Shown: piece by piece, positions 6,199 through 62,551 of the stretch
How positions within the stretch are numbered: position 1 is the first letter of the stretch
How the letters are laid out: each line of letters starts with the position of its first letter
Virus genome (UHGV): UHGV-1558314
Strand: one strand, 5' to 3'
Length of the DNA stretch: 64,000 nt
Origin: a virus
Program-made: the position numbers and the translations under genes
The notes under the pieces: generated by a model
What the model saw: the letters and a program-made list of their open reading frames with translations, nothing else
Databases searched by the model: none
Told to the model about the DNA's origin: nothing

Positions 6199-6304
6199 AT
6201 TGTGTATAGTTTGCTTTCTTAATTTTTGGATATATACACATGCTCAAACTGCACAAAAAACTTCGCATCAATAACTTGATGCGAAGTGTACTCAATGTAA
6301 TATG

Positions 6305-21358: not shown

Positions 21359-21386
21359 TTATATGTTGATATTGTACAACATGCAA
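21358..21386 (-). promoter_or_regulatory. sigma-70-like promoter TTGCAT-N17-TATAAT with conserved TTGTACAA core
   Basis: Minus-sense TTGCATGTTGTACAATATCAACATATAAT, about 18 nt upstream of the ATG at 21339. Confidence 0.55.
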
Positions 21387-21418
21387 AATGCACTTGCATT
21401 TTGATACAACGTATGTCA

Positions 21419-21766
21419 TTATTTTGCAAGCATTTTGCTGATTGCATCTATCACAGTTTCACTGAGCAAGTAGTAGACAACGCTTATCAGCAATGATATC
21501 AGTACTGCAGCTGTGATAAATTGCAACGCATTCACAATTGCACGCACAAATGTTATCTGTGTGTTGTATGCAAGCACTATGCAGCATAGCACAATAATGA
21601 CACACCAGACTACAATTGCATATGCAGGCATCAATGAATTTGTCCATATGCAGTACAATACAGTAGTTAGCATCAAAAATGCTATTGCTCTGATGACTGA
21701 CACAATGATGTCTATGTAGAGCTTCATTACACGTAAATGAACTCTTGGCTTATGCGGTTTCATCAT
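21419..21766 (-). CDS. small membrane protein
   Basis: ORF 21419..21829 trimmed to internal Met; hydrophobic segments IIVSVIRAIAFLMLTTVLYCIW, AIVVWCVIIVLCCIVLAY, AAVLISLLISVVYYLL. Confidence 0.4.
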   Translation of the reverse strand: MMKPHKPRVHLRVMKLYIDIIVSVIRAIAFLMLTTVLYCIWTNSLMPAYAIVVWCVIIVLCCIVLAYNTQITFVRAIVNALQFITAAVLISLLISVVYYLLSETVIDAISKMLAK

Positions 21767-23001
21767 GACTTTATGTACAATTCTGCAAGTTGTCTGGTGT
21801 ACAATCGTGGATTGTGATATGCTTTCCAATATGCAGTAGACTTTATTGCAGCAAGAATCTCATCATAATGTTTGACTGCTTTTGCTACAACTTCATCAAG
21901 TACATGCAAATCTTCTACACTAACAAGCAGCCATTTTTCTACAATGTCAATGAATTCTTGATTGCAATTAAAGCCATATTTGTAGTTGCAAGTGTCAAGT
22001 ACAAGTGGGATGCAGTCATTTGTCAGTGCTTCAAAAAATCTACGAAGACTGAAACAATTCTCATCATATGATGGAATGCTTAATGTAAACTTGGCAGTCT
22101 TGATGAGTTGCAAATACTCTTCGTATGGAATCAGAGGACCATTGTGCTTCCACTGATTGTTATGTCGTCTTGTTGTGTACTTGAACAAAAACTTTGAACT
22201 GTCAAGCTCACAAAGATGGTCCATGCGTAAAATGTAGTTATAGCGGTCTCTTCTATCAGGCCAACTGTCAGTCATTGCAAACACAAAGTCTCTTTGCTTG
22301 TCACATTTTGCTGACATACCTCTATGCTGACACATGCAGTACCAATATTGCTGCGATGGACTGAACTCGAACTTTGAGTGATGCTCACTGCCATCTTTGC
22401 ATTGTTGAACGTAAATATTGTCAGGCACAAAGTGAAAGTAGAAATGTCGAATTTGCAAGCCGTCAATGTAGTCAAGCTTATGCTGCAATGGGTCCTCACA
22501 GAAATTGTAACACTGAATGCGTTTTGCTGCAGCATACTCAGCAACTATGAATGTGCACACCCATTGCAATGCGATGTCTTCACTCTTCAAAAAGTCAACA
22601 AGTGGCTCATTTGGATGCGCTTTGCATTCATTGAACATTTTGTACCACTTGCATTGCTCCATGTCATACTTGGAGACTGTATTGCCATTAAAAAATGACA
22701 CAGTATCAATTTTGAATGCCTCAAGTTGTTTATGCACAATGTCGATTGCTTGTGCATATGTGACAGTCTCATCAGACATTATTTGTGCAAACTTGATTGG
22801 ATGCGCATGCAAATTTGCAATTGTGTCTGCTGACATTTTGCGCTGTGTATGATAATCGACATACAAAAACTGACACTTGTCTGTAAGCAATTCAAGCATT
22901 GCTACAGATTTCCATCGAATTGCTTGAAAGAAATTGAAGTGCGCAGTTTGAAAAATGAGATGCGTAGGCTTGTCAGAATGAGTCAAAGTTTGCATGGACA
23001 A
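21763..23001 (-). CDS. putative DNA glycosyltransferase, GT-B-like (paralog A1)
   Basis: Paralogous to 26026..27582 (shared EDPLQHKL[D/N]YID, SPSQQYWY, IPSYDENCFSLRRFFEALTNDCIPLV). The C-terminal S-L-R-x-F-x-E...P-L-V patch resembles the catalytic region of phage beta-glucosyltransferase. Family assignment is from memory. Confidence 0.45.
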   Translation of the reverse strand: MSMQTLTHSDKPTHLIFQTAHFNFFQAIRWKSVAMLELLTDKCQFLYVDYHTQRKMSADTIANLHAHPIKFAQIMSDETVTYAQAIDIVHKQLEAFKIDTVSFFNGNTVSKYDMEQCKWYKMFNECKAHPNEPLVDFLKSEDIALQWVCTFIVAEYAAAKRIQCYNFCEDPLQHKLDYIDGLQIRHFYFHFVPDNIYVQQCKDGSEHHSKFEFSPSQQYWYCMCQHRGMSAKCDKQRDFVFAMTDSWPDRRDRYNYILRMDHLCELDSSKFLFKYTTRRHNNQWKHNGPLIPYEEYLQLIKTAKFTLSIPSYDENCFSLRRFFEALTNDCIPLVLDTCNYKYGFNCNQEFIDIVEKWLLVSVEDLHVLDEVVAKAVKHYDEILAAIKSTAYWKAYHNPRLYTRQLAELYIKS

Positions 23002-24158
23002 ATGTCGCAGTTATGTTGATGTTTGTGTTTATTTATGAAGTCATATGTCACTGCAAAAAAGTGCTTTGCAATGTCATATCGAGTTTTCAAATATGCTGCT
23101 TGTCGTTCACAAAATGCTGCATAAATATCTGGGTGTTGTTTGAATGCTGCAATGCGTTGCTGTACTTGTTCTGCAGAATGCACATATGACACTTTGCTCA
23201 AATATACATCATCTGCAAATAATCGTTTGTCTTTGTCAACTGCGCAATCAACAAAAGTTGCAATTCGTGCAACAATTGCTTCACCGACACGATTTGGTAT
23301 TAGCCCATATTGCTCATATTGCTGTTCGCCGATAGCAATGTGTGCTGCTGCATATGACATTGCATATGGCACACTATAAAATGGCACACTAAAATCAAAT
23401 GAACAATTTGACTGCAGCAATTGTGTTTGTGCATCAGACAATCTACTTGTCAAGTTGCCTGTATATTTGTGCTCACCAAGAAAACTTGAGCGACAGCCTG
23501 AATCTACATAGTATCGAATGACTTTGTTTATGCGACTGTCAGATAGCATATGCCAATCTCTTGTAGCATATATCAAGTCTACTGTTTTTGCGCCAATATG
23601 ACGAGGCTCTATCGCAACATTGCTGTATGTTGGCAGCATAAACAATGGCAGCCATTTGACATTGTTGAACACTGAATGCTCATTTGACAAATTCATGCAC
23701 TGGCTAAGTTCAAGTACTGGCTCATCATACACGCCATGTAGCTCAACTCTGCCTGCATGCACAAAGTTGACACGCTTAAATGGAAATCGCATATCAGTGC
23801 AAACTGTCATTCTTGCTGCAATAGACATTCGCCACATAGCATGCAGCTTAACAACTGCTTCTGCTTGAGGTCGAGGCAACATATTTAGCAAATCAATCCA
23901 GCCGCCCCACAAAATCCAAACATCATTTGAACAGATGTTGAATTGCAAACTCAATATGTCTTCTACTGTTGTAGCAATAATGTCATGCCCATTGATGCTT
24001 GCAAGGTGTTTTCGTTGATTTGCAATAATAATGACTTGACTGAATGGAGACTCTGGAAATGACACAAGCGCTTTTGCAAACAACACGGGTTCTTGCGACA
24101 CCAAGTTGTTTGAGTATGGGTCGATTATGCAATCAAGCTTGTGTATGAAGAGTCTCAT
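22983..24158 (-). CDS. hypothetical DNA-modification-associated protein (paralog B1)
   Basis: Paralogous to 27579..28745 (similar N-termini MRLFIHKLD / MSKLFILKFD; shared L[L/I]PNR[W/V]-x-E-x-[V/I] near C-terminus). Sits immediately upstream of A1, as B2 does of A2. Confidence 0.4.
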   Translation of the reverse strand: MRLFIHKLDCIIDPYSNNLVSQEPVLFAKALVSFPESPFSQVIIIANQRKHLASINGHDIIATTVEDILSLQFNICSNDVWILWGGWIDLLNMLPRPQAEAVVKLHAMWRMSIAARMTVCTDMRFPFKRVNFVHAGRVELHGVYDEPVLELSQCMNLSNEHSVFNNVKWLPLFMLPTYSNVAIEPRHIGAKTVDLIYATRDWHMLSDSRINKVIRYYVDSGCRSSFLGEHKYTGNLTSRLSDAQTQLLQSNCSFDFSVPFYSVPYAMSYAAAHIAIGEQQYEQYGLIPNRVGEAIVARIATFVDCAVDKDKRLFADDVYLSKVSYVHSAEQVQQRIAAFKQHPDIYAAFCERQAAYLKTRYDIAKHFFAVTYDFINKHKHQHNCDICPCKL

Positions 24159-24889
24159 TTTGCAGATGATTCAAAAAATTTGTAGACATCGCAGTTAGCA
24201 ATGTGGTCATTCCAAGCATCTTCAGAGTCTGCAACAAAGCCACAATGACAGCGTTTTGGCTGCCAAACTGGTTCAACTACTGCAGGCATTGCTTCTTCAA
24301 TAGTGTTTGCAGGTTCATTATCTGCTGGCAATACTTCAACGTCTTCAACTTGTGCTGCATCTTGTTGTGCACGCTGCTCAATGACATTGCCCTCAAAGTC
24401 AAACTGAATGCCAGCTTGTTCTGCTTTTGTACGATTATTACGAGCTACGAACAAATACGCAAAGATGAATTCGACAAGCGCTATGGCAAGTGACTTCAGT
24501 GCATTGACAAGAAGCATGATGCCTGTTGATAAATGGCCGTCAAAGCTCAAAAACACGAACACACATGTAAAGCATGACATAAACACTGCAATCAGTGGAA
24601 TGTTCTTGTATTTTGGCAACAAATCAGAGTTGACTGATGTAAGCAACACAACGAATTGATAACCTATTGCAAGCCAATAGTCGCCAAACACTGCATAGAT
24701 ATGCGTAGTGATGCCAATAAGAAATGTGATAGTCACAATCATAATGAGCAACACACTTGTCAGAAAGTCTGCAATAGAATTGCTGAGCTTGTCATACCAG
24801 TGTTTGTTGACAATTGACGTGTTGGCTACGCGCACTTTACTAAGTGCATCTATGCCGCTTTTGATATTTGATTGTGCTTTCATACACAT
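24155..24889 (-). CDS. membrane protein with C-terminal Cys/His cluster
   Basis: Four hydrophobic segments; C-terminal RCHCGFV...HIANCDVY could bind zinc. Confidence 0.45.
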   Translation of the reverse strand: MCMKAQSNIKSGIDALSKVRVANTSIVNKHWYDKLSNSIADFLTSVLLIMIVTITFLIGITTHIYAVFGDYWLAIGYQFVVLLTSVNSDLLPKYKNIPLIAVFMSCFTCVFVFLSFDGHLSTGIMLLVNALKSLAIALVEFIFAYLFVARNNRTKAEQAGIQFDFEGNVIEQRAQQDAAQVEDVEVLPADNEPANTIEEAMPAVVEPVWQPKRCHCGFVADSEDAWNDHIANCDVYKFFESSAK

Positions 24890-25030
24890 ATAACGTTATA
24901 TCATATCTACACACAAAGCAAATGCTACTGCAAGTGCAGCCATAATTGCATATACGACTATCGATGCAGTATAATCTGATTCAGGATTCCACTTATCAGG
25001 TGTGTTAAGCTTGTGATACTTGTCTCGTCT

Positions 25031-25082
25031 CATCTTGAGTCAAAAAATGATGGCTGCTGCTACATTTTGTGAAATCATGTGC
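25031..25082 (-). promoter_or_regulatory. hairpin plus U-tract (possible attenuator or terminator) between promoter and gene 24155..24889
   Basis: 12-bp inverted repeat GATGGCTGCTGC / GCAGCAGCCATC with 20-nt loop, followed on the minus strand by TTTTTT. Confidence 0.4.
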
Positions 25083-25124
25083 AGCAGCCATCTGGCAGGT
25101 TTCTTGCTTTGTAAAGCTTGGATA

Positions 25125-25153
25125 GAGGATGGATTTTATATGTTGATATTGTA
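25125..25153 (-). promoter_or_regulatory. sigma-70-like promoter TTGCAT-N17-TATAAA (second copy of conserved motif)
   Basis: Minus-sense TTGCATGTTGTACAATATCAACATATAAA; spacer identical to the copy at 21358-21386. Confidence 0.5.
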
Positions 25154-25195
25154 CAACATGCAAAATGTATTTGCATTTTGATACAACATATATTG

Positions 25196-25411
25196 TCATT
25201 TTGCACAGTCTGATGCAATTAAATCTTTGTCAAAGCATTCATCTATAATGTCTTCAATAAGATACGCTTCGACATTGTTAAGCTTCAAGATATCTACGAG
25301 TTTTGCTTTGATATCGCAAGCTAATGCAGATTCGACTGTATGCAATATGACTGATGATACGACATGCTTGTCTGTCATCATTTGTAATTGCTGTGGTGTT
25401 ACTCTACTCAT
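25196..25411 (-). CDS. hypothetical small protein (71 aa)
   Basis: ORF track; 4-nt overlap with the upstream kinase gene. Confidence 0.35.
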   Translation of the reverse strand: MSRVTPQQLQMMTDKHVVSSVILHTVESALACDIKAKLVDILKLNNVEAYLIEDIIDECFDKDLIASDCAK

Positions 25412-25980
25412 GCGCCAAGTTCAGCTAAGCATTTCAACACATTGTCTTGCAGACTTGCATTGTTGTCAATTTCGACAATATGCAATGGTGAGTTCTTTCG
25501 CCACTCATCATATGCAGCAATCATTTCATTGCGTTTGCTGACATCAATGTTGACATCACCGCAAAAATTATCGACAAAATCTGGCACAACATCACGCTTG
25601 CATAAGAACACTACGTGCGGCAATGTTGCAAGCTTCTTTTCATATGCTTCAAAGAATGCTTGATGCTTATCAGTGTGCAGCTCTTTGTAAAGCGTTGTGT
25701 TGAAGATTTGATGCGTGATGAATGAACGGTCACACAAAAACGTTGCTTTGCCAAAGCCTTGAGAGTCATTTCCAATGAACTCTAAGAAGAAGCGCCAATC
25801 ATAAAAGAACGCTTCATTGAGGTCCCAAGGTTCGGGCATTGGGTCATCACCTGACTCATGCTGCTGCCACCAAGAACGAGATGTTCGTTTGCAATTGATA
25901 AACCATGGGCGCCACTTCATCAATTCATTGATGAGTGTTGTTTTGCCTGAAGCTTCTACACCTTCAAATATCGCTATCAT
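25408..25980 (-). CDS. P-loop deoxynucleoside monophosphate kinase (thymidylate kinase-like)
   Basis: N-terminal IAIFEGVEASGKTTLI (Tmk-type P-loop) and CDRSFITHQ (DR[Y/S]-like motif). Confidence 0.6.
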   Translation of the reverse strand: MIAIFEGVEASGKTTLINELMKWRPWFINCKRTSRSWWQQHESGDDPMPEPWDLNEAFFYDWRFFLEFIGNDSQGFGKATFLCDRSFITHQIFNTTLYKELHTDKHQAFFEAYEKKLATLPHVVFLCKRDVVPDFVDNFCGDVNIDVSKRNEMIAAYDEWRKNSPLHIVEIDNNASLQDNVLKCLAELGA

Positions 25981-26025: not shown

Positions 26026-27582
26026 TCATTGCACTTCTACGAATGGCTCTTTCAACACAAAGCTGTCACCATTGCAACATGCGGCTGAGCCATCGTCTGC
26101 ATCAAGTGCGCATGACATATCAGACTTGCAGAACTTGCAATATGAACATGACCATGCATGACTCATAAAGTTGTTTGCTTCACAAATTACACAGCGCTCA
26201 TGTGAAAGTGTATTGTCGCAATTGTCACAAGACTTCTTGATTGGCACATCTTTATTGATATATGCAAGATGCAATGCAATATCATACACAAAGTCACCCG
26301 TATATTGCTGAATGAAATCAGTGTGCCACAACTCTTTTAACAATTGTGTATGTCTATATGGCTGAACAATGTCTTCAAGATGCTGCAAGTCATCATCGCT
26401 AACCATGAGCTTCTTAATGACAAACTGTTTGAACTGCGGCCATCTGTCAAACATATAGAGTTTGCATGAGTTGTGCACAAGTGGAACACAGCCAAGCACA
26501 ATGCTTTCACAGAATCTACGCAAACTAAAACAGTTTGCATCATATGACGGCACAATCAATGTGAATCTGCTATGCTTGATGAGTTCAAGGTATGTGTCAT
26601 ATGGCAGTAGCTTGTCTGACAATGGCTGCTGTTGCTTGTCCCTGCTGAAAAATCTGAACACAATGCCTTTATCAATTGCATCTTGATTGTGCAGATGCAT
26701 GAGTTTGTTGATGAGTTCTGTGCGTTCAGTTTTGTCTCGCCAAGTATTCGTCAATGCAAATGCAAAATTCAGTCGCTTGTCATCAAACGTCGCTTCAATG
26801 TCATCCCAAGTTTTGTCATGCAAATACCAGTATTGCTGTGATGGGCACCATCCATAATATGCAATAGCGTCTTGTTCTGCTGTAACGTCATACACATATG
26901 CAGAATTGTATTCAAGGCCAAGCCCTTTGACATTGTTGCAGTCATGAAAGTACCAATGCTGCACTTTGAATATCTTTGATGCACTGAATGCGCTTTCATA
27001 TGGCCCTGAATAGCGATAGTCAATGTAATTGAGCTTGTGCTGCAATGGGTCTTCGACAAAGTTGTTTATGACTGTGCCTTGTTGTTTGCCATTAGTCTTG
27101 CGAGCATTCAATGCAATATTGTACTGCATAATGACTGACAGCATCTCATACACTACATACATGAGTGCTTTGTAGACTGAGCCTGCTGCGTCAATTAGCG
27201 GCAAATCACGTTTGACTGATGCAGTACCAAATGTCTTGCAATATGCAGAAAATGTATCAAGTTCTGCCTGTTGAAATGAATTGCATGCGCCATTGAATAT
27301 GTTGAATGTTGCAATGTAGCTCATATTACAAGATGTCATTGACATATCAAGACGCTTCATAATGTCAGCAATGCGACATTGAGCAAAATCTGACACATCA
27401 ACATATTTGACATGATGACCTGATGCAGTCAAGCCAACTGCGACTTCTTTCATTTGTGGCACAAAGCCTACTACAATGAACAAGTCATCTTTGTTTGCTC
27501 GTTCAAACATTGCTGCACTTTTCCAAGTCAATGAATTGAAAAAGTCTATGTAGCCAGTCTGTGTGATGATATGTGTTCTCAT
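26026..27582 (-). CDS. putative DNA glycosyltransferase, GT-B-like (paralog A2) with Cys-rich C-terminal tail
   Basis: Paralog of 21763..23001 (VEDPLQHKLNYID, CPSQQYWY, VPSYDANCFSLRRFCESIVLGCVPLV). Extra C-terminal Cys cluster (CDNCDN...CVICE...CSYCKFCK). Confidence 0.45.
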   Translation of the reverse strand: MRTHIITQTGYIDFFNSLTWKSAAMFERANKDDLFIVVGFVPQMKEVAVGLTASGHHVKYVDVSDFAQCRIADIMKRLDMSMTSCNMSYIATFNIFNGACNSFQQAELDTFSAYCKTFGTASVKRDLPLIDAAGSVYKALMYVVYEMLSVIMQYNIALNARKTNGKQQGTVINNFVEDPLQHKLNYIDYRYSGPYESAFSASKIFKVQHWYFHDCNNVKGLGLEYNSAYVYDVTAEQDAIAYYGWCPSQQYWYLHDKTWDDIEATFDDKRLNFAFALTNTWRDKTERTELINKLMHLHNQDAIDKGIVFRFFSRDKQQQPLSDKLLPYDTYLELIKHSRFTLIVPSYDANCFSLRRFCESIVLGCVPLVHNSCKLYMFDRWPQFKQFVIKKLMVSDDDLQHLEDIVQPYRHTQLLKELWHTDFIQQYTGDFVYDIALHLAYINKDVPIKKSCDNCDNTLSHERCVICEANNFMSHAWSCSYCKFCKSDMSCALDADDGSAACCNGDSFVLKEPFVEVQ

Positions 27583-28745
27583 GATTTGAATGTTTGTTCA
27601 AGAATTGTGTAACACTGCACAATCATTACTGCAAGAGCTTTTTGCTGTGCTTGTTTGCAATCATCAAAATTTGTGGGCGCAGTGCGTACGCGTGTTTTGC
27701 TATTAAGTGTCGCAAATGTCGCGTAGTCATCGAAGCCTATAATGTCAGCAAATAGGGCAATTGGCTTATAATCTACAAGTATGTTGCAGCAATTTGCAAG
27801 TACGCCTTCAACCCATCGATTTGGCAGCAAGTCTGCTTGCACATACAATGAATCACCAACTACAAGATTGTATGCCGACTGTGACATTACACGCGGCATT
27901 GCATCGTATGTGACTTTGTATTTAAGTGTAAAGTTTGGTGCTGCTGATTTAATCGCAGACAAAATTGTGTCATCAAGATATGATGTTATGAGACACGTGT
28001 CGCACATATGTATGACAAATTGTTCAATCACACTTCTACGATACTCGTCAAGATATGTGAAACCTGCACAACTTGCACAGCATGCATATTGCTGCTTTAT
28101 GTCAGCAAAGCTACGCACATGAGCTTCAATTGCATTTTGCATCGTTACTTGTAGTTTAAGCAATCTTGGCTCTTTAATGTATTGAAGCTTCAATGCATTG
28201 ACTGCTGCAATGATTTGCAATGGGGCAAACACACATTGAGACTCATCAAGCCAAGCGTATTTGAGATTTTTGTGCTGGCATAGATGCGTAATGTTGTCTT
28301 TTTGTGATTCTAAGTACTCTTTGTAATTGTGCAATCGCTTTGTCAATGTGCATTCTTTATCAAAGTCGAATCGCAAATCAGTTGTTAGTGTAAATTTGCG
28401 AGCGTTTGACAAACACCATGTTTTGAATGCATTCCACAGAACATCTTGCTGAAATTCTGAGCAATGTTCAAGAGCAGCCTTTGAACCTTGCCAGAATATT
28501 GCGCAATCATCTGATTTTGCGCACTTCAGCATATCTTGCCATGCATGTATGTTATTGATAATATGCACATTATCATACACAAGCTCATCAAGTATTGCAT
28601 GCTTGTTCTCAGGGTCGCCAAACACATATACAGCATCAAACATTGTCTGCACAAAACCTGCAAATGCAATAGGTTCTGTATGCTTAAGATGCTGTACGTC
28701 TGAACGCACGCATGTGTCAAATTTCAAAATGAATAGTTTGCTCAT
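27579..28745 (-). CDS. hypothetical DNA-modification-associated protein (paralog B2)
   Basis: Paralog of 22983..24158; same position relative to its A partner. Confidence 0.4.
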   Translation of the reverse strand: MSKLFILKFDTCVRSDVQHLKHTEPIAFAGFVQTMFDAVYVFGDPENKHAILDELVYDNVHIINNIHAWQDMLKCAKSDDCAIFWQGSKAALEHCSEFQQDVLWNAFKTWCLSNARKFTLTTDLRFDFDKECTLTKRLHNYKEYLESQKDNITHLCQHKNLKYAWLDESQCVFAPLQIIAAVNALKLQYIKEPRLLKLQVTMQNAIEAHVRSFADIKQQYACCASCAGFTYLDEYRRSVIEQFVIHMCDTCLITSYLDDTILSAIKSAAPNFTLKYKVTYDAMPRVMSQSAYNLVVGDSLYVQADLLPNRWVEGVLANCCNILVDYKPIALFADIIGFDDYATFATLNSKTRVRTAPTNFDDCKQAQQKALAVMIVQCYTILEQTFKS

Positions 28746-29442
28746 ATACTTTGCAATTATCTATTACATGTTGATATTGTACTTCATCTATGATGTGATT
28801 TGCAATGACACCATATGAGGCGTCATACATTGGCATCTTCTCATATGACAATGCTGCGTCAAGATTGCATATCACATAATTGCAATGCACAATGTCATCT
28901 ACATTGTCACTAACTGCTACGATATTGACACACTTTGCAAGAAATGCATCATCAAAGTCTACTTGATTGCATGCAACCTCATAATCTGCTGCGCTTCTTG
29001 GGTACCAATATAACTCAATGCCAGCACTACTAAGTAGTCGCAAGCCATCTATGTGATGATACAAGTCAACAAAATGCACTTGCTTAACGCCTGCTTGCAA
29101 AATAAGCTTTGCGCAATCAATGCATGGACTGTATGTTACATACAGCACTGCGTCATTTGCGGTCGCATTGCCATATTTGCACAGCTTCATCAATGCGTTT
29201 GATTCTGCATGCAAAACTTCTTTGTTGGTTTTGATACCTGCCGATGTTGCATGCTCACAACAATTTGACATGCCAGTTGGCATGCCATTGTAGCCATCTG
29301 AAATTATGCAACCATTTTTTACAAGCAATGCGCCAACTTTTGCTCGCTGAGCATATGAATTTAATGACCAAAGCTCAGCCATTTTAAGATATATGAGATT
29401 TCGTTGAAACTGCTTTGTTTCAGACCAAGTTAGCCATTTCAT
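28717..29442 (-). CDS. dCMP deaminase (zinc-dependent cytidine/deoxycytidylate deaminase family)
   Basis: Zinc-ligand motifs LHAESNAL (H-A-E) and YSPCIDCAKL (P-C-x-x-C). Confidence 0.8.
   Translation of the reverse strand: MKWLTWSETKQFQRNLIYLKMAELWSLNSYAQRAKVGALLVKNGCIISDGYNGMPTGMSNCCEHATSAGIKTNKEVLHAESNALMKLCKYGNATANDAVLYVTYSPCIDCAKLILQAGVKQVHFVDLYHHIDGLRLLSSAGIELYWYPRSAADYEVACNQVDFDDAFLAKCVNIVAVSDNVDDIVHCNYVICNLDAALSYEKMPMYDASYGVIANHIIDEVQYQHVIDNCKVYEQTIHFEI
28763..28791 (-). promoter_or_regulatory. partial copy of conserved promoter motif inside the 3' end of the dCMP deaminase gene
   Basis: Minus-sense GAAGTACAATATCAACATGTAAT, about 18 nt upstream of the B2 start codon at 28745. Confidence 0.35.
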
Positions 29443-43587: not shown

Positions 43588-43696
43588 ATATATAATATGT
43601 CAATAAATTTCACATATAAAGTCTTTTCGCTTATGAAAACTACTCAACTCTGGTTTGAACGCCAGCAGTCAATCGCGGGGGGGCTCTTCGTGACAC
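43588..43696. repeat. left arm of a near-perfect inverted repeat of about 109 bp
   Basis: tatataatatgtcaataaatttcacatataaagtcttttcgcttatgaaaactactcaactctggtttgaacgccagcagtcaatcgcgggggggctcttcgtgacac; its reverse complement occurs at 46611-46721 with one small indel. Confidence 0.85.
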
Positions 43697-43749
43697 AGGC
43701 ATGCGCATATACGTGCGTGACAATGCTGATAACATTGTTAATGGGCTAA
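43633..43749 (+). other. short leader ORF (MKTTQLWFERQQSIAGG...) containing a G7 tract, in the +1 frame relative to downstream gene 43701..44333
   Basis: ATG at 43633; G7 at 43677-43683. The gene A frame is open from 43659 through the G tract, so a -1 shift or one extra G fuses leader and gene. Confidence 0.5.
43677..43683 (+). repeat. homopolymeric G7 tract (candidate slippage site)
   Basis: cgcgggggggctc read directly. Confidence 0.9.
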
Positions 43750-44333
43750 CTTGCTATTTGCACTGTATTGAAACAGGTCGAACACTTCAAAGAGACTTGC
43801 ACACAAGCAATAATGGTGATGGCGTCACATTTTACATAACTGGTGATGACTATAAGCAATTAGTCGGCTCAACAAAAGACGCACAATTTTATCTTATTGA
43901 CACGCCTGATGCTGCAGATATGTCTTGGTCATCTGCAGCATTTACACTTAGATATGGCGCAGATATAGTTAACAACACACTAAATGTCAATATTGAAGCG
44001 TTCAAATCATGCGAAGTAACAATAACTAACAGTGGCAATACATGCAGTTGCACCGCAATGCTTGAATCTGCATTGCCAGTGGCAATTAAACTGTCAACAA
44101 TTTGCAATACATCAGTAGCATCTAATGTCGATGTGTCAGTTAACATAGCTGCAAATAGCTTGACTGCTAATTTTAGAGTTGGCAATAGCTTATCTGCAAA
44201 ATTGACGCATGTCGGCATATGGTCTATTGCTAATGCTTCTTATGTTTCACCAATATATGAGGGTGCTATAATTGTGAAAACACTGAACGACATATTTCAC
44301 GTGTTCATAACAGATAAGACAACACTTGGCTAA
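43701..44333 (+). CDS. cassette gene A (210 aa), candidate variable fibre or receptor-binding protein
   Basis: ORF track; first plus-strand gene after the strand switch; starts 5 nt after the IR. Confidence 0.5.
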   Translation: MRIYVRDNADNIVNGLTCYLHCIETGRTLQRDLHTSNNGDGVTFYITGDDYKQLVGSTKDAQFYLIDTPDAADMSWSSAAFTLRYGADIVNNTLNVNIEAFKSCEVTITNSGNTCSCTAMLESALPVAIKLSTICNTSVASNVDVSVNIAANSLTANFRVGNSLSAKLTHVGIWSIANASYVSPIYEGAIIVKTLNDIFHVFITDKTTLG

Positions 44334-44368
44334 GTGTACATATCTTACAACATTCAAACATATAGCAT

Positions 44369-44425
44369 ATGAAAACTCCACAATTTTGGTTTGAGCGTCA
44401 ACAAGGGCTAGCGGGGGGGCTCTAA
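44369..44425 (+). other. leader ORF copy B (MKTPQFWFERQQGLAGGL, 18 aa) with G7 tract
   Basis: Diverged at nucleotide level from the IR copy but conserved as peptide. Stop immediately after the G tract, while the gene B frame opens immediately before it. Confidence 0.5.
44413..44419 (+). repeat. homopolymeric G7 tract
   Basis: gcgggggggctc read directly. Confidence 0.9.
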
Positions 44426-44462: not shown

Positions 44463-44891
44463 TTGTACAACTTTGGCACTACTGAAACAATGGCGATACA
44501 AGGTACAATATCGCTTGACAATGTCACAGTTAACATACCAACGTCAGGCTTTCCTATCAAAATGATGGAATGCCGCGGTGGTGAAACTCATGCAATTGGT
44601 GCGTTAATGATGCCAAAAGCTTATGACTACTCAAACTTTGCTGCAAAAATTGGTTTTGGCTGCTATGCAGCAGATGGTCGTGGCACTGGCAACGTTTACA
44701 ACATCAATGTGTATGCCAACATTAACAACACAAGCCCTGGTGGTAATCCCATACTGTTAACTTCTATGGCATGGCAATATCCATTAGGCGTTGGTGATAA
44801 GCTTACATTGCCAATGTCAAATCCATCTGTCAAAGTTAACAATGGAGATATCGTGTCAATCATACTTAAGAATGCAAGGAAAGTCAGCTAA
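44463..44891 (+). CDS. cassette gene B (142 aa; start uncertain)
   Basis: ORF track uses a TTG start; in-frame ATG at 44490. The frame is open upstream to the G7 tract (RGGSKLVYLQLVIGDASLYNFGTTET...). Confidence 0.45.
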   Translation: MYNFGTTETMAIQGTISLDNVTVNIPTSGFPIKMMECRGGETHAIGALMMPKAYDYSNFAAKIGFGCYAADGRGTGNVYNINVYANINNTSPGGNPILLTSMAWQYPLGVGDKLTLPMSNPSVKVNNGDIVSIILKNARKVS

Positions 44892-45587: not shown

Positions 45588-45658
45588 AACAACATCTTAG
45601 TTGTTTTGCATCTTGCATCAAAACAACATCTTAGTTGTTTTGCATCTTGCATCAAAAC
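45583..45658. repeat. tandem direct repeat (34-bp unit, 2.2 copies), each unit containing a 9-bp-stem hairpin
   Basis: atcaaaacaacatcttagttgttttgcatcttgc repeated; CAAAACAAC / GTTGTTTTG inverted repeat inside each unit. Confidence 0.8.
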
Positions 45659-45895
45659 TCATAGGCATTGCATTCAAAGATGAAGATTTTACAGCAGACA
45701 TTGCACTTGATAACGCGTCATTTTATGATGGCCAAACTGCATGGCTAACTGGAAAGCTTCTGGCAGCATTGTGTTAAGTATAAAACAGTTACATTGAAAG
45801 CTAACACAACAGTAAACATCGCCATTTAATGCACATCAAAAACTCCACTGAACAATTAAGTTCAGTGGAGTTTTTGATGTGTAGTGTGCAAAATA

Positions 45896-46610: not shown

Positions 46611-46721
46611 GTGTCACGAAGAGCCCCCCCGCGATTGACTGCTGGCGTTCAAACCAGAGTTGAGTAGTTTTCATAAGCGAAAAGACTTTTTGTATGTGAA
46701 ATTTATTGACATATTATATAT
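46611..46721. repeat. right arm of the inverted repeat (reverse complement of 43588-43696)
   Basis: Direct comparison of both arms; includes the leader ORF start (ATG at 46674, minus) and a G7 tract. Confidence 0.85.
46624..46630 (-). repeat. homopolymeric G7 tract (C7 on plus strand)
   Basis: gagcccccccgcg read directly. Confidence 0.9.
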
Positions 46722-47437: not shown

Positions 47438-47495
47438 TGTTCAAAATTGTTATTAAGTGAGTGTATATGTTTAACACAAATTCGATGATTGCTCA

Positions 47496-48095
47496 TCAAA
47501 GAATTTTCCAAGAAGCGTTTGATGTCAAATTCATTGTGATTGTCGTGCCATCATCATCAACTGTCACAGATTCTGTACTCAGCACAAGAGTTGCTGCAGC
47601 AGCTGCTTGAGTAATGCTAACATTCAATGATTTGCCACCAGGAGTTGTCACTGTCAATACAAATGATTTCTGTTCAATTGTCAAATTTTGCGGTATTGTA
47701 GCTTCAATTGACCATGCAAACTTTGCAATATATCCAGGGTCATTTGCAATTGCTGTGTCATTTGTTGCAGCGACGCCATTTGCTGTGTACGCAGTCGGAA
47801 TGCTAAGATTCGGATTTGTAGTTGCAAACTTAAGTTTTGCTGCGTTAGACTCACCAGAAACAACAATTTTTGTGGTTGCCGCAGAAACATTGTATGATGT
47901 TGTGCCAGATACAAATTCTGCAAGAGCAGCTTGGTTGATTGTTGCTTGCTTTGTAACTGTTGGTGTGGTCTTCGTTTGCACAGTCGCAATTGTGCTACGA
48001 ATGCCTCTGCCGGTATGAGCTCCTGCAGTAAATGCCAGGATATCATTACCCTCACCAGACATTGGTGAACACTGTGCCCATATAGCTTTTGCCAT
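47496..48095 (-). CDS. BACON/Ig-like domain protein (199 aa), paralog
   Basis: N-terminus MAKAIWAQCSPMSGEGNDILAFTAGAHTGRGIRSTIATV parallels 46823..47437 and 48167..52495. Confidence 0.5.
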   Translation of the reverse strand: MAKAIWAQCSPMSGEGNDILAFTAGAHTGRGIRSTIATVQTKTTPTVTKQATINQAALAEFVSGTTSYNVSAATTKIVVSGESNAAKLKFATTNPNLSIPTAYTANGVAATNDTAIANDPGYIAKFAWSIEATIPQNLTIEQKSFVLTVTTPGGKSLNVSITQAAAAATLVLSTESVTVDDDGTTITMNLTSNASWKIL

Positions 48096-48166
48096 TGTTA
48101 CTGTGCAATTTTTAATTGTTTGACATGATATTTATATGCATTGCTTAAGCAATGTTGAATTGACAT

Positions 48167-52495: not shown

Positions 52496-52550
52496 TTTAT
52501 GTCGTTTTGTTATTTTCTGTGATATTTACACACACAATGTAACTTGCATT

Positions 52551-59648: not shown

Positions 59649-59722
59649 CGAATGTGCACACATGAGAATAGGTCTCTTCGAATGTGCACATATGAGAATA
59701 AGTCTCTTCGAATATGCGCACA
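59649..59722. repeat. tandem direct repeat (30-bp unit, about 2.5 copies) with TGTGCACA palindromes
   Basis: cgaatgtgcacacatgagaataggtctctt / cgaatgtgcacatatgagaataagtctctt / cgaatatgcgcaca; related atttgtgcgcatatc at 59611-59625. Confidence 0.8.
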
Positions 59723-59752
59723 AAAAGAAGAGCTTGCATATGCAAGCTCTTC
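59719..59752 (-). terminator. rho-independent terminator (26-bp perfect palindrome) followed by TTTTTGTG
   Basis: GAAGAGCTTGCATATGCAAGCTCTTC, downstream of gene 59795..60178. Confidence 0.55.
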
Positions 59753-61933: not shown

Positions 61934-62464
61934 TTATGAAAGCTGAGCCGTAGTGTACCAAGTTAAGTCAGATTCATTGTACGTCAATGCAATTGTAAGA
62001 GCTTGACCAAGTTGCTGTGACAATTGCTTACATGAATCAATGAATGCTTGCATATCTGCATATGACTTTGTGTAGAACATGCCCCATTCTGTTGTATTGA
62101 CTGCGACATTATGAACATCTGCAAGATGACAGACTTCTACAGATGATACATTAAAGTCTGAGCCATCTTCATCAACATGATGCACATTGTTTGCGCACCA
62201 ATACTGATACAAACGAGCTTTGTCTGATGCAGTCATGTCAAACTGCATGCGTTGAGCAATTGATTCATCGACATTATCAATGAATTGCTTTGCTGACTTT
62301 GATTCAAGCATCGCATGATGCAGTGTATGATTTGCATGCCAGTCTGGAGTGCCGATTGCTACGCTAAGCTGATTTTCAAACACAAATTGTTGTGCTTGAG
62401 CTTCTTCGTAGCATTGTGTCCATGTCTTTGTCATGTTGTTTATCTTAAGTTTGTATATGTACAA
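61934..62464 (-). CDS. hypothetical protein (176 aa)
   Basis: ORF track. Confidence 0.4.
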   Translation of the reverse strand: MYIYKLKINNMTKTWTQCYEEAQAQQFVFENQLSVAIGTPDWHANHTLHHAMLESKSAKQFIDNVDESIAQRMQFDMTASDKARLYQYWCANNVHHVDEDGSDFNVSSVEVCHLADVHNVAVNTTEWGMFYTKSYADMQAFIDSCKQLSQQLGQALTIALTYNESDLTWYTTAQLS

Positions 62465-62490
62465 ATAATGTTGATGTTGTATTGAAGCAT

Positions 62491-62533
62491 CGCAAAATAA
62501 GGCCAGACTACTCGGTTGAGCTTGCCTGGCCTT
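62491..62533 (-). terminator. putative terminator after sigma factor gene
   Basis: 8-bp stem AAGGCCAG / CTGGCCTT with long loop, followed on the minus strand by TTATTTTG. Confidence 0.35.
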
Positions 62534-62551
62534 TCAAATGCATTTTGCTTA

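What the first reader, a model, noticed from the sequence alone, without database searches (positions are those of the whole stretch)
25031..25153. Promoter followed by a hairpin and U6 tract before a membrane-protein gene: possible attenuator
The promoter copy at 25125-25153 is followed about 40 nt downstream (minus sense) by a 12-bp-stem hairpin with TTTTTT, yet the next start codon (24889) is a further 140 nt away. Either the hairpin ends the upstream operon and the promoter serves another purpose, or it is a conditional terminator in the 5' UTR of gene 24155..24889.
Basis: seen in the sequence. Interest (0 to 1): 0.4.

Follow-up and report, generated by a model that had tools for sequence, protein, structure and literature searches.

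The report
Terminator hairpin just downstream of phage promoter
An uncultured gut phage carries a strong, conserved stop-signal hairpin about 55 bases after a repeated promoter-like element and 8 bases before an overlooked small membrane-protein gene, so it most likely throttles transcription into the next five genes; this is an ordinary kind of gene control and no sensing device was found.

Summary
A strand-specific promoter-like motif (GTGCAAA-N10-ATGTTGTACAAT; 10 copies, all minus strand, about 0.8 expected) occurs in tandem at 25206-25148. It is followed 55 nt later by the most stable hairpin + T-run of the window (25092-25049, -26.1 kcal/mol, T6 at 25047-25042). This is the only place in the window where the order is promoter then terminator. 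The layout is conserved in eight relatives, including one with only 62% identity in the neighbouring protein. Stem, T-run and leader are under purifying selection; the loop is not.

I found no antiterminator fold, no conserved leader peptide, no Rfam match and no reiterated nut/put-like box, so "conditional" is unsupported. No other copy of the promoter motif lies before 21429, so the five downstream genes appear to depend on read-through.

Best reading: a fixed, partly leaky or factor-bypassed intrinsic terminator that acts as attenuator and insulator and releases a ~100-nt RNA. Rivals are a stand-alone sRNA gene and a Q-like antitermination switch. It is a new member of a known kind, of modest interest.

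The parts
25178..25206 (-). Distal promoter-motif unit GTGCAAA-N10-ATGTTGTATCAA. It overlaps the TGA stop (25198-25196) of the 71-aa gene. This unit is absent in L007 and L020 and is duplicated further in L001.
25148..25176 (-). Proximal promoter-motif unit ATGCAAA-N10-ATGTTGTACAAT (12/12 in the 3' box; TACAAT at 25153-25148). It is present in all eight relatives (in L008 as GTGCAAC-N10-ATGTAGTATCAT).
25158..25176 (-). Weak A/T-rich stem-loop ATGCAAA-TACAT-TTTGCAT inside the promoter unit, placed as in PeSL cassettes. It has no T-run.
   Evidence: read from the sequence; compared with PMC2839356
25093..25147 (-). Leader of 55 nt, largely unstructured. It shows 0-2 substitutions against relatives that are 11-13% diverged at 4-fold sites. 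It includes the box AACCTGCCA (25101-25093), which is also kept in L008.
25049..25092 (-). Terminator hairpin: 5' arm 25092-25077, loop 25076-25066, 3' arm 25065-25049 (bulged A at 25061). Both arms are invariant in the ~95% relatives. The loop varies in length and sequence.
25042..25047 (-). T6 tract (U6 in RNA), one base after the stem. It is kept in all relatives.
24896..25033 (-). Probable gene for a 45-aa single-pass membrane protein (MRRDKYHKLNTPDKWNPESDYTASIVVYAIMAALAVAFALCVDMI).
24155..24889 (-). 244-aa membrane protein with about 4 TM segments and a C-terminal Cys/His motif. It is the first large gene downstream. Homologues sit beside GT-like genes in Chryseobacterium phages MA9V-1 and MA9V-2.
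21371..21429 (-). Second copy of the tandem promoter block. It is the next promoter-motif site downstream, lies directly before the 1308-aa SbcC-like gene, and has no terminator after it.

Best explanation
The hairpin + U6 at 25092-25042 is a genuine intrinsic terminator placed inside a long minus-strand early/middle transcription unit. It lies about 50 nt downstream of the start site of a tandem, copy-number-variable promoter cassette and 8 nt upstream of a small membrane-protein gene. It stops most RNA polymerases arriving from the upstream operon (dCMP deaminase, two GT-like genes, kinase, 71-aa gene). It also stops most polymerases that start at the adjacent promoter, releasing an RNA of about 100 nt. 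The fraction that reads through is the only visible source of mRNA for the next five genes (45-aa, 244-aa membrane protein, 391-aa and 410-aa GT-like proteins, 115-aa). It therefore acts as a fixed attenuator and insulator that sets a low level for this module, and the promoter placed just before it (1-3 units in different strains) tops up the input. Shown here: the anatomy, the strength, the conservation, the absence of cis-sensing elements and the absence of another motif copy downstream. Inferred: promoter activity, termination efficiency and read-through.
For: The hairpin is the strongest of 12 hairpin + T-run sites, against 0-1 per shuffle, with z = -4.77. The promoter motif family is strand-specific and over-represented. 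It normally lies about 30 nt before an ATG and after a terminator, so the 25-kb site is the only promoter-then-terminator case in the window. The layout is kept in win, L001, L005/6, L007, L019, L020, L021 and in L008, the 62% relative. The stem (0/33), the T-run to ATG stretch (0/15) and the leader (0-2/55) are conserved against 11-13% divergence at 4-fold sites, while the loop shows 3/11 changes plus indels. There are 8 nt between T-run and ATG, and no motif copy above background between 25049 and 21429. The downstream genes are under purifying selection (2-3% amino-acid against 11-13% synonymous divergence), so they must be expressed. No antiterminator fold, leader peptide or Rfam family was found. 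The ~50% relatives have the usual terminator-then-promoter order, and L011 and L013 have another strong hairpin before the membrane-protein gene, so a boundary at this module recurs.
Against: There is no expression data of any kind. Promoter activity is inferred, and the motif fits neither the sigma-70 nor the Bacteroidota consensus (PMC7366714). A -26 kcal/mol stem with U6 may terminate so efficiently that simple leakiness would not suffice, which favours a trans factor. There are no compensatory changes in the stem (0 of 16 pairs), and one variant (L020) has an uncompensated A.C mismatch. Purifying selection on the whole 55-nt leader is not required by a plain attenuator and hints at an additional function. 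A promoter of an unrecognised class inside the small ORF cannot be excluded for the 244-aa gene and beyond.
Confidence: 0.5

Rival explanations
1. Stand-alone small-RNA gene. The promoter, the 55-nt leader and the terminator form a unit whose ~100-nt product is the functional molecule, for example a base-pairing regulator of host or phage mRNAs. Read-through into the downstream genes is incidental.
For: A start site plus an intrinsic terminator is the signature used for canonical intergenic sRNAs in Bacteroides (PMC7366714). The unstructured 5' leader followed by a terminal hairpin + U6 has the usual sRNA shape. The leader is under purifying selection within the close clade. No ORF overlapping the leader is conserved.
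Against: The 5' part of the leader is not conserved in L008, where only AACCTGCCA and the hairpin are kept. No antisense target in the window exceeds chance, since 37 of 100 shuffled leaders pair at least as well with the translation-initiation regions. There is no Rfam match. The unit abuts a gene 8 nt downstream that has no other promoter. Host targets could not be tested.
Confidence: 0.2
2. Factor-dependent antitermination switch, analogous to lambda pR'-tR' with Q, or to N/put systems. Early in infection, transcripts stop at the hairpin. Later a phage protein, or a modification of RNA polymerase, lets polymerase read through and turns on the membrane-protein/GT module as a delayed class.
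For: A promoter followed closely by a strong terminator before the genes it serves is the defining layout of Q-type control (own knowledge). The terminator looks too strong for simple leakiness. The leader and the AACCTGCCA box next to the stem are conserved, as a loading or recognition site would be. A second -10-like element (CATATAA) follows TACAAT, which recalls sigma-dependent pause signals.
Against: That downstream element is present in all copies of the promoter, including those with no terminator. AACCTGCCA is not reiterated at other promoters. None of the 30 window proteins scanned against Pfam, about 30 of roughly 70 ORFs, matches a Q, NusG, ANTAR or sigma family, although only about a third of the genome is in the window. 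The leader has no conserved RNA structure such as put.
Confidence: 0.15
3. Plain operon-end terminator with an incidental or inactive promoter copy. The mobile promoter cassette was inserted by recombination upstream of an existing terminator and is not used productively. The downstream genes are transcribed from an unrecognised promoter or by a terminator-insensitive polymerase.
For: The cassette is repeated and highly plastic, with 1, 2 or 3 units in strains that are at least 93% identical. This resembles the recombinogenic PeSL cassettes of T4-type phages (PMC2839356, PMC4122927). The structural-gene region seems to use a different upstream motif (by eye).
Against: The proximal unit and its spacing to the hairpin are kept in all eight relatives, including the 62% one, and the leader is under purifying selection. 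There is no room for any promoter between the T-run and the small ORF.
Confidence: 0.15

Closest known systems
Lambda late promoter pR' with terminator tR' (6S RNA) and antiterminator Q (own knowledge)
   Same: A phage promoter is followed at short range by a strong intrinsic terminator before the genes it serves. The default product is a short terminated RNA, and downstream expression needs read-through.
   Different: No Q-like protein or Q-binding element was identified. The same promoter motif is used elsewhere without a terminator. The genes served are a membrane-protein/glycosyltransferase-like module, not late genes. The host is probably a Bacteroidota species with a different RNA polymerase holoenzyme.
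PeSL (promoter-early stem-loop) cassettes of T4-type phages (PMC2839356; PMC4122927)
   Same: Both are short, repeated intergenic cassettes that combine a promoter with a stem-loop, start at the upstream stop codon, and are hot spots of indels between close strains. Here the unit number is 1-3, and an A/T-rich stem-loop sits between the two promoter boxes. In relative L009 a terminator hairpin overlaps the GTGCAAA box.
   Different: In PeSLs the stem-loop lies between -35 and -10, or over -10, so it stops upstream transcription only. Here the strong hairpin lies at about +50 to +100 of the cassette's own transcript. The phage is not T4-type and the motif is not sigma-70-like.
Internal partial terminators (attenuators) within operons, e.g. 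the rplL-rpoB attenuator of E. coli (own knowledge)
   Same: An intrinsic terminator inside a polycistronic unit lowers the level of distal genes by a fixed fraction, without a sensor.
   Different: Here a dedicated promoter sits immediately upstream of the terminator, and the efficiency is unknown.
Canonical intergenic and 5'-UTR-derived sRNAs of Bacteroides (PMC7366714)
   Same: Own promoter plus intrinsic terminator, about 100 nt, with an unstructured 5' part and a terminal hairpin.
   Different: No target, no conserved seed beyond the close clade, no expression evidence, and phage-borne.

Membership tests
Intrinsic (Rho-independent) terminator | Stable G+C-rich stem-loop | tested here: met
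   16-bp stem, -26.1 kcal/mol, the strongest in the window; z = -4.77
Intrinsic (Rho-independent) terminator | U-tract within 0-2 nt of the stem on the transcribed strand | tested here: met
   One A, then T6 at 25047-25042. L008 has T6 directly after the stem
Intrinsic (Rho-independent) terminator | Causes transcript release | not testable with these tools
   Needs Term-seq or in vitro transcription
Cis-sensing attenuator / riboswitch | Terminator lies between a promoter and the first ORF | tested here: met
   Promoter motif ends at 25148, hairpin at 25092-25049, ATG at 25033
Cis-sensing attenuator / riboswitch | Mutually exclusive antiterminator structure of comparable energy | tested here: not met
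   With the 3' arm blocked, the best fold is 14-21 kcal/mol worse in all four lineages and shares no helix
Cis-sensing attenuator / riboswitch | Sensor: leader peptide or ligand/tRNA/protein-binding aptamer | tested here: not met
   The ATG in the 5' arm is lost in L008 and frame-shifted in L007 and L021. There is no Rfam family. The leader is only 55 nt and unstructured. A protein-binding site cannot be excluded.
Q-type promoter-proximal antitermination | Promoter followed by a terminator ahead of the regulated genes | tested here: met
Q-type promoter-proximal antitermination | Antiterminator protein encoded by the phage | tested here: inconclusive
   No Q, NusG or ANTAR family among the 30 window proteins scanned against Pfam, about 30 of roughly 70 ORFs. 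The window holds only about a third of a ~175-kb genome, and most proteins have no family.
Q-type promoter-proximal antitermination | Promoter-specific loading site or pause signal | tested here: inconclusive
   A -10-like CATATAA follows TACAAT, but in all promoter copies. AACCTGCCA is unique to this site.
PeSL-type mobile promoter/stem-loop cassette | Repeated intergenic cassette with promoter and stem-loop; indels between close strains | tested here: met
   70-nt repeat at 25.2 and 21.4 kb; 1-3 units among relatives; an internal A/T stem-loop
PeSL-type mobile promoter/stem-loop cassette | Stem-loop placed within or just before the promoter, so it acts only on upstream transcription | tested here: not met
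   The strong hairpin lies 55 nt downstream of the -10-like box (PMC2839356)
Canonical intergenic sRNA | Own start site plus intrinsic terminator | tested here: inconclusive
   The sequence signature is present, but the start site is not mapped
Canonical intergenic sRNA | Conserved seed with complementary target | tested here: not met
   The 5' leader is not conserved in L008. Targets in the window are at chance level. Host targets are untestable.

The most novel reading that the evidence does not exclude
The promoter-leader-hairpin unit is more than a passive attenuator. Either its ~100-nt product is a functional phage small RNA, or the conserved leader and AACCTGCCA box are the recognition site of a phage antitermination factor that times expression of a membrane-protein/glycosyltransferase-like module. 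Either would be a processive-antitermination or sRNA system in a phage that probably infects Bacteroidota. As far as I know, neither has been described for such phages; I ran no literature search on this point.
Probability: 0.25. Interest if true: 0.5.

Novelty: new member of a known kind. Interest (0 to 1): 0.25.

Why it matters
If the reading is right, it gives a concrete, conserved example of how a large uncultured gut phage, probably infecting Bacteroidota, sets the dose of a membrane-protein plus glycosyltransferase-like module that sits inside its nucleotide-metabolism/DNA-modification cluster. It also provides a defined promoter motif, a set of terminators and a 100-nt candidate RNA that can be checked against metatranscriptomes. 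The work adds an unannotated small membrane-protein gene. It shows that the promoter cassettes of this phage group are copy-number-variable repeats, much like the PeSL cassettes of T4-type phages. None of this overturns current ideas. The value is in annotation and as a lead for transcription studies in phages of Bacteroidota, where promoters and regulators are poorly known.

Tried and rejected
- Leader-peptide attenuation. The ATG at 25091 in the 5' arm opens 28 codons through the terminator. It is lost in L008, frame-shifted in L007 and L021, and not conserved. Rejected.
- Longer overlapping ORFs (64 aa on the minus strand, 53 aa on the plus strand). They are broken by the +17-nt, -30-nt and -1-nt indels and by loss of the ATG in relatives. 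Rejected.
- Riboswitch or alternative-fold attenuator. There is no competing helix and no Rfam hit. Rejected.
- Covariation support for the hairpin. None was found: 0 compensatory pairs. Support rests on stability and conservation only.
- sRNA target search inside the window. The result is at chance level.
- Reiterated nut/put-like box. AACCTGCCA is unique to this site.
- Replication-origin idea (a promoter without an ORF). There is no skew change at 25 kb and a gene follows 8 nt after the T-run. Dropped.
- dN/dS for the small ORF. It is weak (12 synonymous, 24 non-synonymous, about 0.6) and no better than the other frames, so 'probable gene' rests on positional homology, an in-frame indel and the TM pattern.
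- DNA search against cultured phages gave no match. The nearest cultured phages (Chryseobacterium MA9V-1 and MA9V-2) are too distant for regulatory comparison.
- Two pattern scans were wasted because I allowed only 0-2 nt between the stem and the T-run when the window has 3. The corrected scans found only close relatives.
- The search with the 71-aa protein returned only close relatives.

Full report
**What the window is.** The 64-kb window is phage-like. It has 40.8% G+C, and almost all ORFs are on the minus strand and tightly packed.
- Positions 8-44 kb hold replication and nucleotide-metabolism genes: helicases, an SSB, an SbcC-like 1308-aa protein, dCMP deaminase and thioredoxin.
- Baseplate and head genes lie beyond 47 kb.
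- There is no DNA match to cultured phages.
- The nearest cultured relatives, at about 29% amino-acid identity in a helicase, are large phages of Chryseobacterium and Tenacibaculum, and Sphingomonas phage PAU.
- Start codons are not preceded by Shine-Dalgarno sequences (by eye), as in Bacteroidota (PMC7366714).
- Close relatives come from metagenome assemblies, and one record name reads 'gut.metagenome'.
- A Bacteroidota host is therefore an inference, not a result.

**The observation.** In minus-strand sense the 306-nt gap between the 71-aa gene (stop at 25196) and the 244-aa gene (start at 24889) reads as follows:
- the stop codon, embedded in GTGCAAA;
- two tandem units of a motif GTGCAAA-N10-ATGTTGTA(c/t)(a/c)A(t/a), at 25206-25178 and 25176-25148;
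- a 55-nt leader;
- the hairpin at 25092-25049;
- one A, then T6 (25047-25042);
- 8 nt;
- an ATG at 25033.

The hairpin is a 12-bp G+C-rich stem extended by 4 more pairs past a bulged A, with an 11-nt loop.
- The 116-nt fragment folds at -31.6 kcal/mol, z = -4.77, with 0/200 shuffles as good.
- A uniform scan of the window for hairpin + T-run sites gives 12 on the minus strand at -15 kcal/mol or below, 11 of them intergenic. Dinucleotide shuffles give 0-1 per shuffle and never below -18.
- This hairpin is the strongest (-26.1 kcal/mol) and the only one with a loop longer than 6 nt.
- The tool's own terminator scan missed it because of its loop limit of 8 nt.

**The 'promoter'.**
- The underlying motif has 10 hits, all on the minus strand and all between 10 and 44 kb, against about 0.8 in shuffles.
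- Copies lie about 30 nt before start codons.
- At 10.7 and 30.9 kb the motif lies 30-40 nt downstream of a hairpin + T-run terminator. At 14.5 kb a weaker copy lies further downstream of one.
- This placement is what promoters do, but activity is inferred. The motif is not picked up by the sigma-70 scan and does not fit the Bacteroidota -7 TAnnTTTG consensus (PMC7366714).
- The 25-kb site is the only one in the window where the order is promoter then terminator.

An ORF of 45 codons starts 8 nt after the T-run (25033-24896).
- It encodes a basic N-terminus followed by one hydrophobic segment (residues 20-45).
- It is open in 7 of 8 related sequences.
- The one indel (in L005) is in frame.
- In the 62% relative L008 a 49-codon ORF at the same place shares KW..SDY.ASIV.Y.I and the TM segment (44% identity over 34 aa, E about 1e-5 against the session's loci). 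Its stop overlaps the next gene's ATG.
- The substitution pattern is only weakly purifying (12 synonymous, 24 non-synonymous).
- One low-coverage contig (L019) has TGG>TGA at the conserved Trp codon.
- I therefore call it a probable gene.
- Either way, the 140-nt 'empty' 5' UTR of the finding is not empty.

**Comparative evidence.** The 244-aa protein has 41 homologues in the large protein database: 95%, 93%, 91% (a fragment), 62%, and a large group at 45-53%. I fetched contigs for ten of these, plus the IMG/VR relative and two further variants.
- The layout 71/72-aa gene, promoter motif, 42-55 nt, hairpin + T6, 8-16 nt, small ORF is present in the window, L001, L005/6, L007, L019, L020, L021 and L008.
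- Against L005 and L007, which differ from the window at 11.4% and 13.0% of 4-fold degenerate sites, the pattern is clear. The two hairpin arms have 0/33 changes and the T-run to ATG stretch has 0/15. The leader has 2/55 and 0/55. The 11-nt loop has 3 substitutions plus indels in each.
- So the stem, the U-tract and also the leader are constrained, and the loop is free.
- In L008 the leader is different, but AACCTGCCA, TGGCTGCTG...CAGCAGCCA and T6 are kept, with a 4-nt loop.
- There is no covariation: 13 of 16 pairs never vary and none changes on both sides. L020 carries one uncompensated A.C mismatch.
- The number of promoter units varies: 1 in L007 and L020; 2 in the window, L019 and L021; 2 of a different make in L005; 3 in L001. 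The proximal unit is constant.
- In the ~50% relatives the order is the usual terminator then promoter, upstream of a longer operon. L011 and L013 have another very strong hairpin, without a proper T-run, just before the membrane-protein gene.

**Is it conditional?** I looked for each known kind of cis sensor and found none.
- Alternative fold: with the 3' arm blocked, the best structure is 14-21 kcal/mol worse and shares no helix among lineages. The leader is essentially unpaired.
- Leader peptide: the ATG in the 5' arm (28 codons) is lost in L008 and shifted in L007 and L021. The longer ORFs on both strands are also broken by the indels.
- Known RNA families: none locally at E up to 10 that comes near a gathering score, and none in the whole window.
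- Reiterated nut/put-like site: AACCTGCCA occurs at chance level elsewhere and not near other promoters.
- Trans factor: none of the 30 window proteins scanned against Pfam, about 30 of roughly 70 ORFs, matches a Q, NusG, ANTAR or sigma family. This says little, because most have no family and two thirds of the genome lie outside the window.

**Why read-through must happen.** Only 8 nt separate the T-run from the ATG, so no promoter fits there. Between 25049 and the next promoter block (21429/21399) only background-level motif matches occur, all inside coding sequence. The five genes in between are well conserved at the protein level (2-3% amino-acid against 11-13% synonymous divergence), so they are presumably expressed. 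Their mRNA must therefore cross the hairpin, unless a promoter of an unrecognised class lies inside the small ORF. That exception could serve the 244-aa gene onward, but not the small ORF.

**Most likely mechanism (confidence 0.5).** The element is a fixed intrinsic terminator acting as attenuator and insulator. It ends the six-gene upstream unit and most transcripts from the adjacent promoter, giving a ~100-nt RNA from about 25141 to about 25044. It lets a fraction through, which sets a low dose for a module that begins with two membrane proteins. The promoter units just upstream add input, and their varying number among strains would tune the output.

**Rivals.**
- A stand-alone sRNA gene (0.2). 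For it: the start-site-plus-terminator signature and the constrained leader. Against it: no conserved seed in L008 and no target above chance.
- A Q-like or other factor-dependent antitermination switch (0.15). For it: the strength of the terminator and the conserved leader and box. Against it: no factor and no promoter-specific signal.
- A plain operon-end terminator with an incidental promoter copy (0.15). For it: the cassette's mobility. Against it: conservation of the arrangement out to the 62% relative.

**Comparison with known systems.**
- The architecture works like lambda pR'-tR' or like internal operon attenuators (own knowledge).
- The repeated, plastic promoter cassette resembles the PeSL elements of T4-type phages (PMC2839356, PMC4122927). 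In PeSLs, however, the stem-loop sits within or before the promoter. Here the strong hairpin is inside the cassette's own transcript, so that membership feature is not met.
- It meets the sequence definition of an intrinsic terminator and fails the tested definitions of a cis-sensing attenuator or riboswitch.

**Verdict.** This is a real, conserved regulatory element of a familiar kind in a poorly known phage group. The novelty class is 'new member of a known kind', with modest interest (0.25). The constrained leader leaves room, about 0.25, for a more interesting sRNA or antitermination function.

Noticed in passing
window 43588-43696 and 46611-46721 (partial third copy at 44365-44423): An inverted repeat of about 110 nt, 97% complementary, flanks a 2.9-kb segment that contains the only plus-strand genes in the 10-64 kb part of the window (43701-44333 and 44490-44891). 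Each arm carries a C7/G7 run and a promoter-like stretch. It could be an invertible segment or a mobile element.
   Followed up: partly
window 21763-24158 and 26026-28745: There are two paralogous pairs of glycosyltransferase-like genes: 388 aa with 391 aa (24% identity) and 518 aa with 410 aa (30% identity; weak GT47 and beta-glucosyltransferase-like hits). They lie beside a dCMP deaminase (28717-29442) and a P-loop kinase (25408-25980). This looks like a DNA-modification or sugar-transfer cluster, duplicated on either side of the element.
   Followed up: partly
window 25148-25206; L001, L005, L007, L020, L021: The promoter unit shows copy-number polymorphism (1, 2, a different 2, or 3 tandem units of 17-30 nt) among strains that are at least 93% identical. 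The gap before the SbcC-like gene also changes length (79 nt in the window, 153 nt in L005).
   Followed up: partly
window about 21362-21340 and about 14410-14388; also about 10635-10619 and about 43531-43515: Identical short 5'-leader cassettes sit directly before start codons of unrelated genes. One is ATAATCTAAATCTCATTTAGAAT, itself a small hairpin. The other is AACCTCTACAACA.
   Followed up: no
window 31004-30977 and 14663-14634: Two terminator hairpins 16 kb apart are nearly identical in sequence (GCAAGCAGACTGCAATTG[C/T]AGTCTGCTTG). They bracket the long unit that contains the element.
   Followed up: no
L019 about 823 (small ORF); L021 about 2301 (71-aa gene) and 2840-2880 (244-aa gene): Relatives carry in-frame stop codons or disruptions: TGG>TGA at the conserved Trp of the small ORF (2.7x coverage contig), TAT>TAG in the 71-aa gene, and an insertion that splits the 244-aa gene. 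These could be assembly errors or natural knock-outs. The window itself uses TGA as a stop.
   Followed up: no
L011 3885-3945; L013 3855-3975: In the 52% relatives a hairpin of about 22 bp, without a proper T-run, lies just upstream of the membrane-protein gene. In L013 its loop is expanded by a tandem repeat (AAAGAATTTAGCAAT x2).
   Followed up: no
L009 1872-1921: A composite terminator/promoter: the 3' arm of a hairpin + T-run is itself the GTGCAAA box of the promoter motif. This is the arrangement described for PeSL cassettes.
   Followed up: no
window 45590-45660, 2880-2960, 59654-59730: Short tandem direct repeats occur in intergenic gaps: GATGCAAGATGCAAAACAACTAAGATGTTGTTTT x2; ATAATCACAAGTTGATAGATA-like x3; GCACATTCGAAGAGAC.TATTCTCAT x2.
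   Followed up: no
window 47438-48166, 52496-52550, 62435-62551, 6199-6304, 1213-1503: Genes in the structural region and at the left end are preceded by a different upstream motif, roughly TGT(G/A)(T/C)A.ATAT about 30-40 nt before the ATG. This may be a second (late?) promoter class. It was seen by eye only.
   Followed up: no
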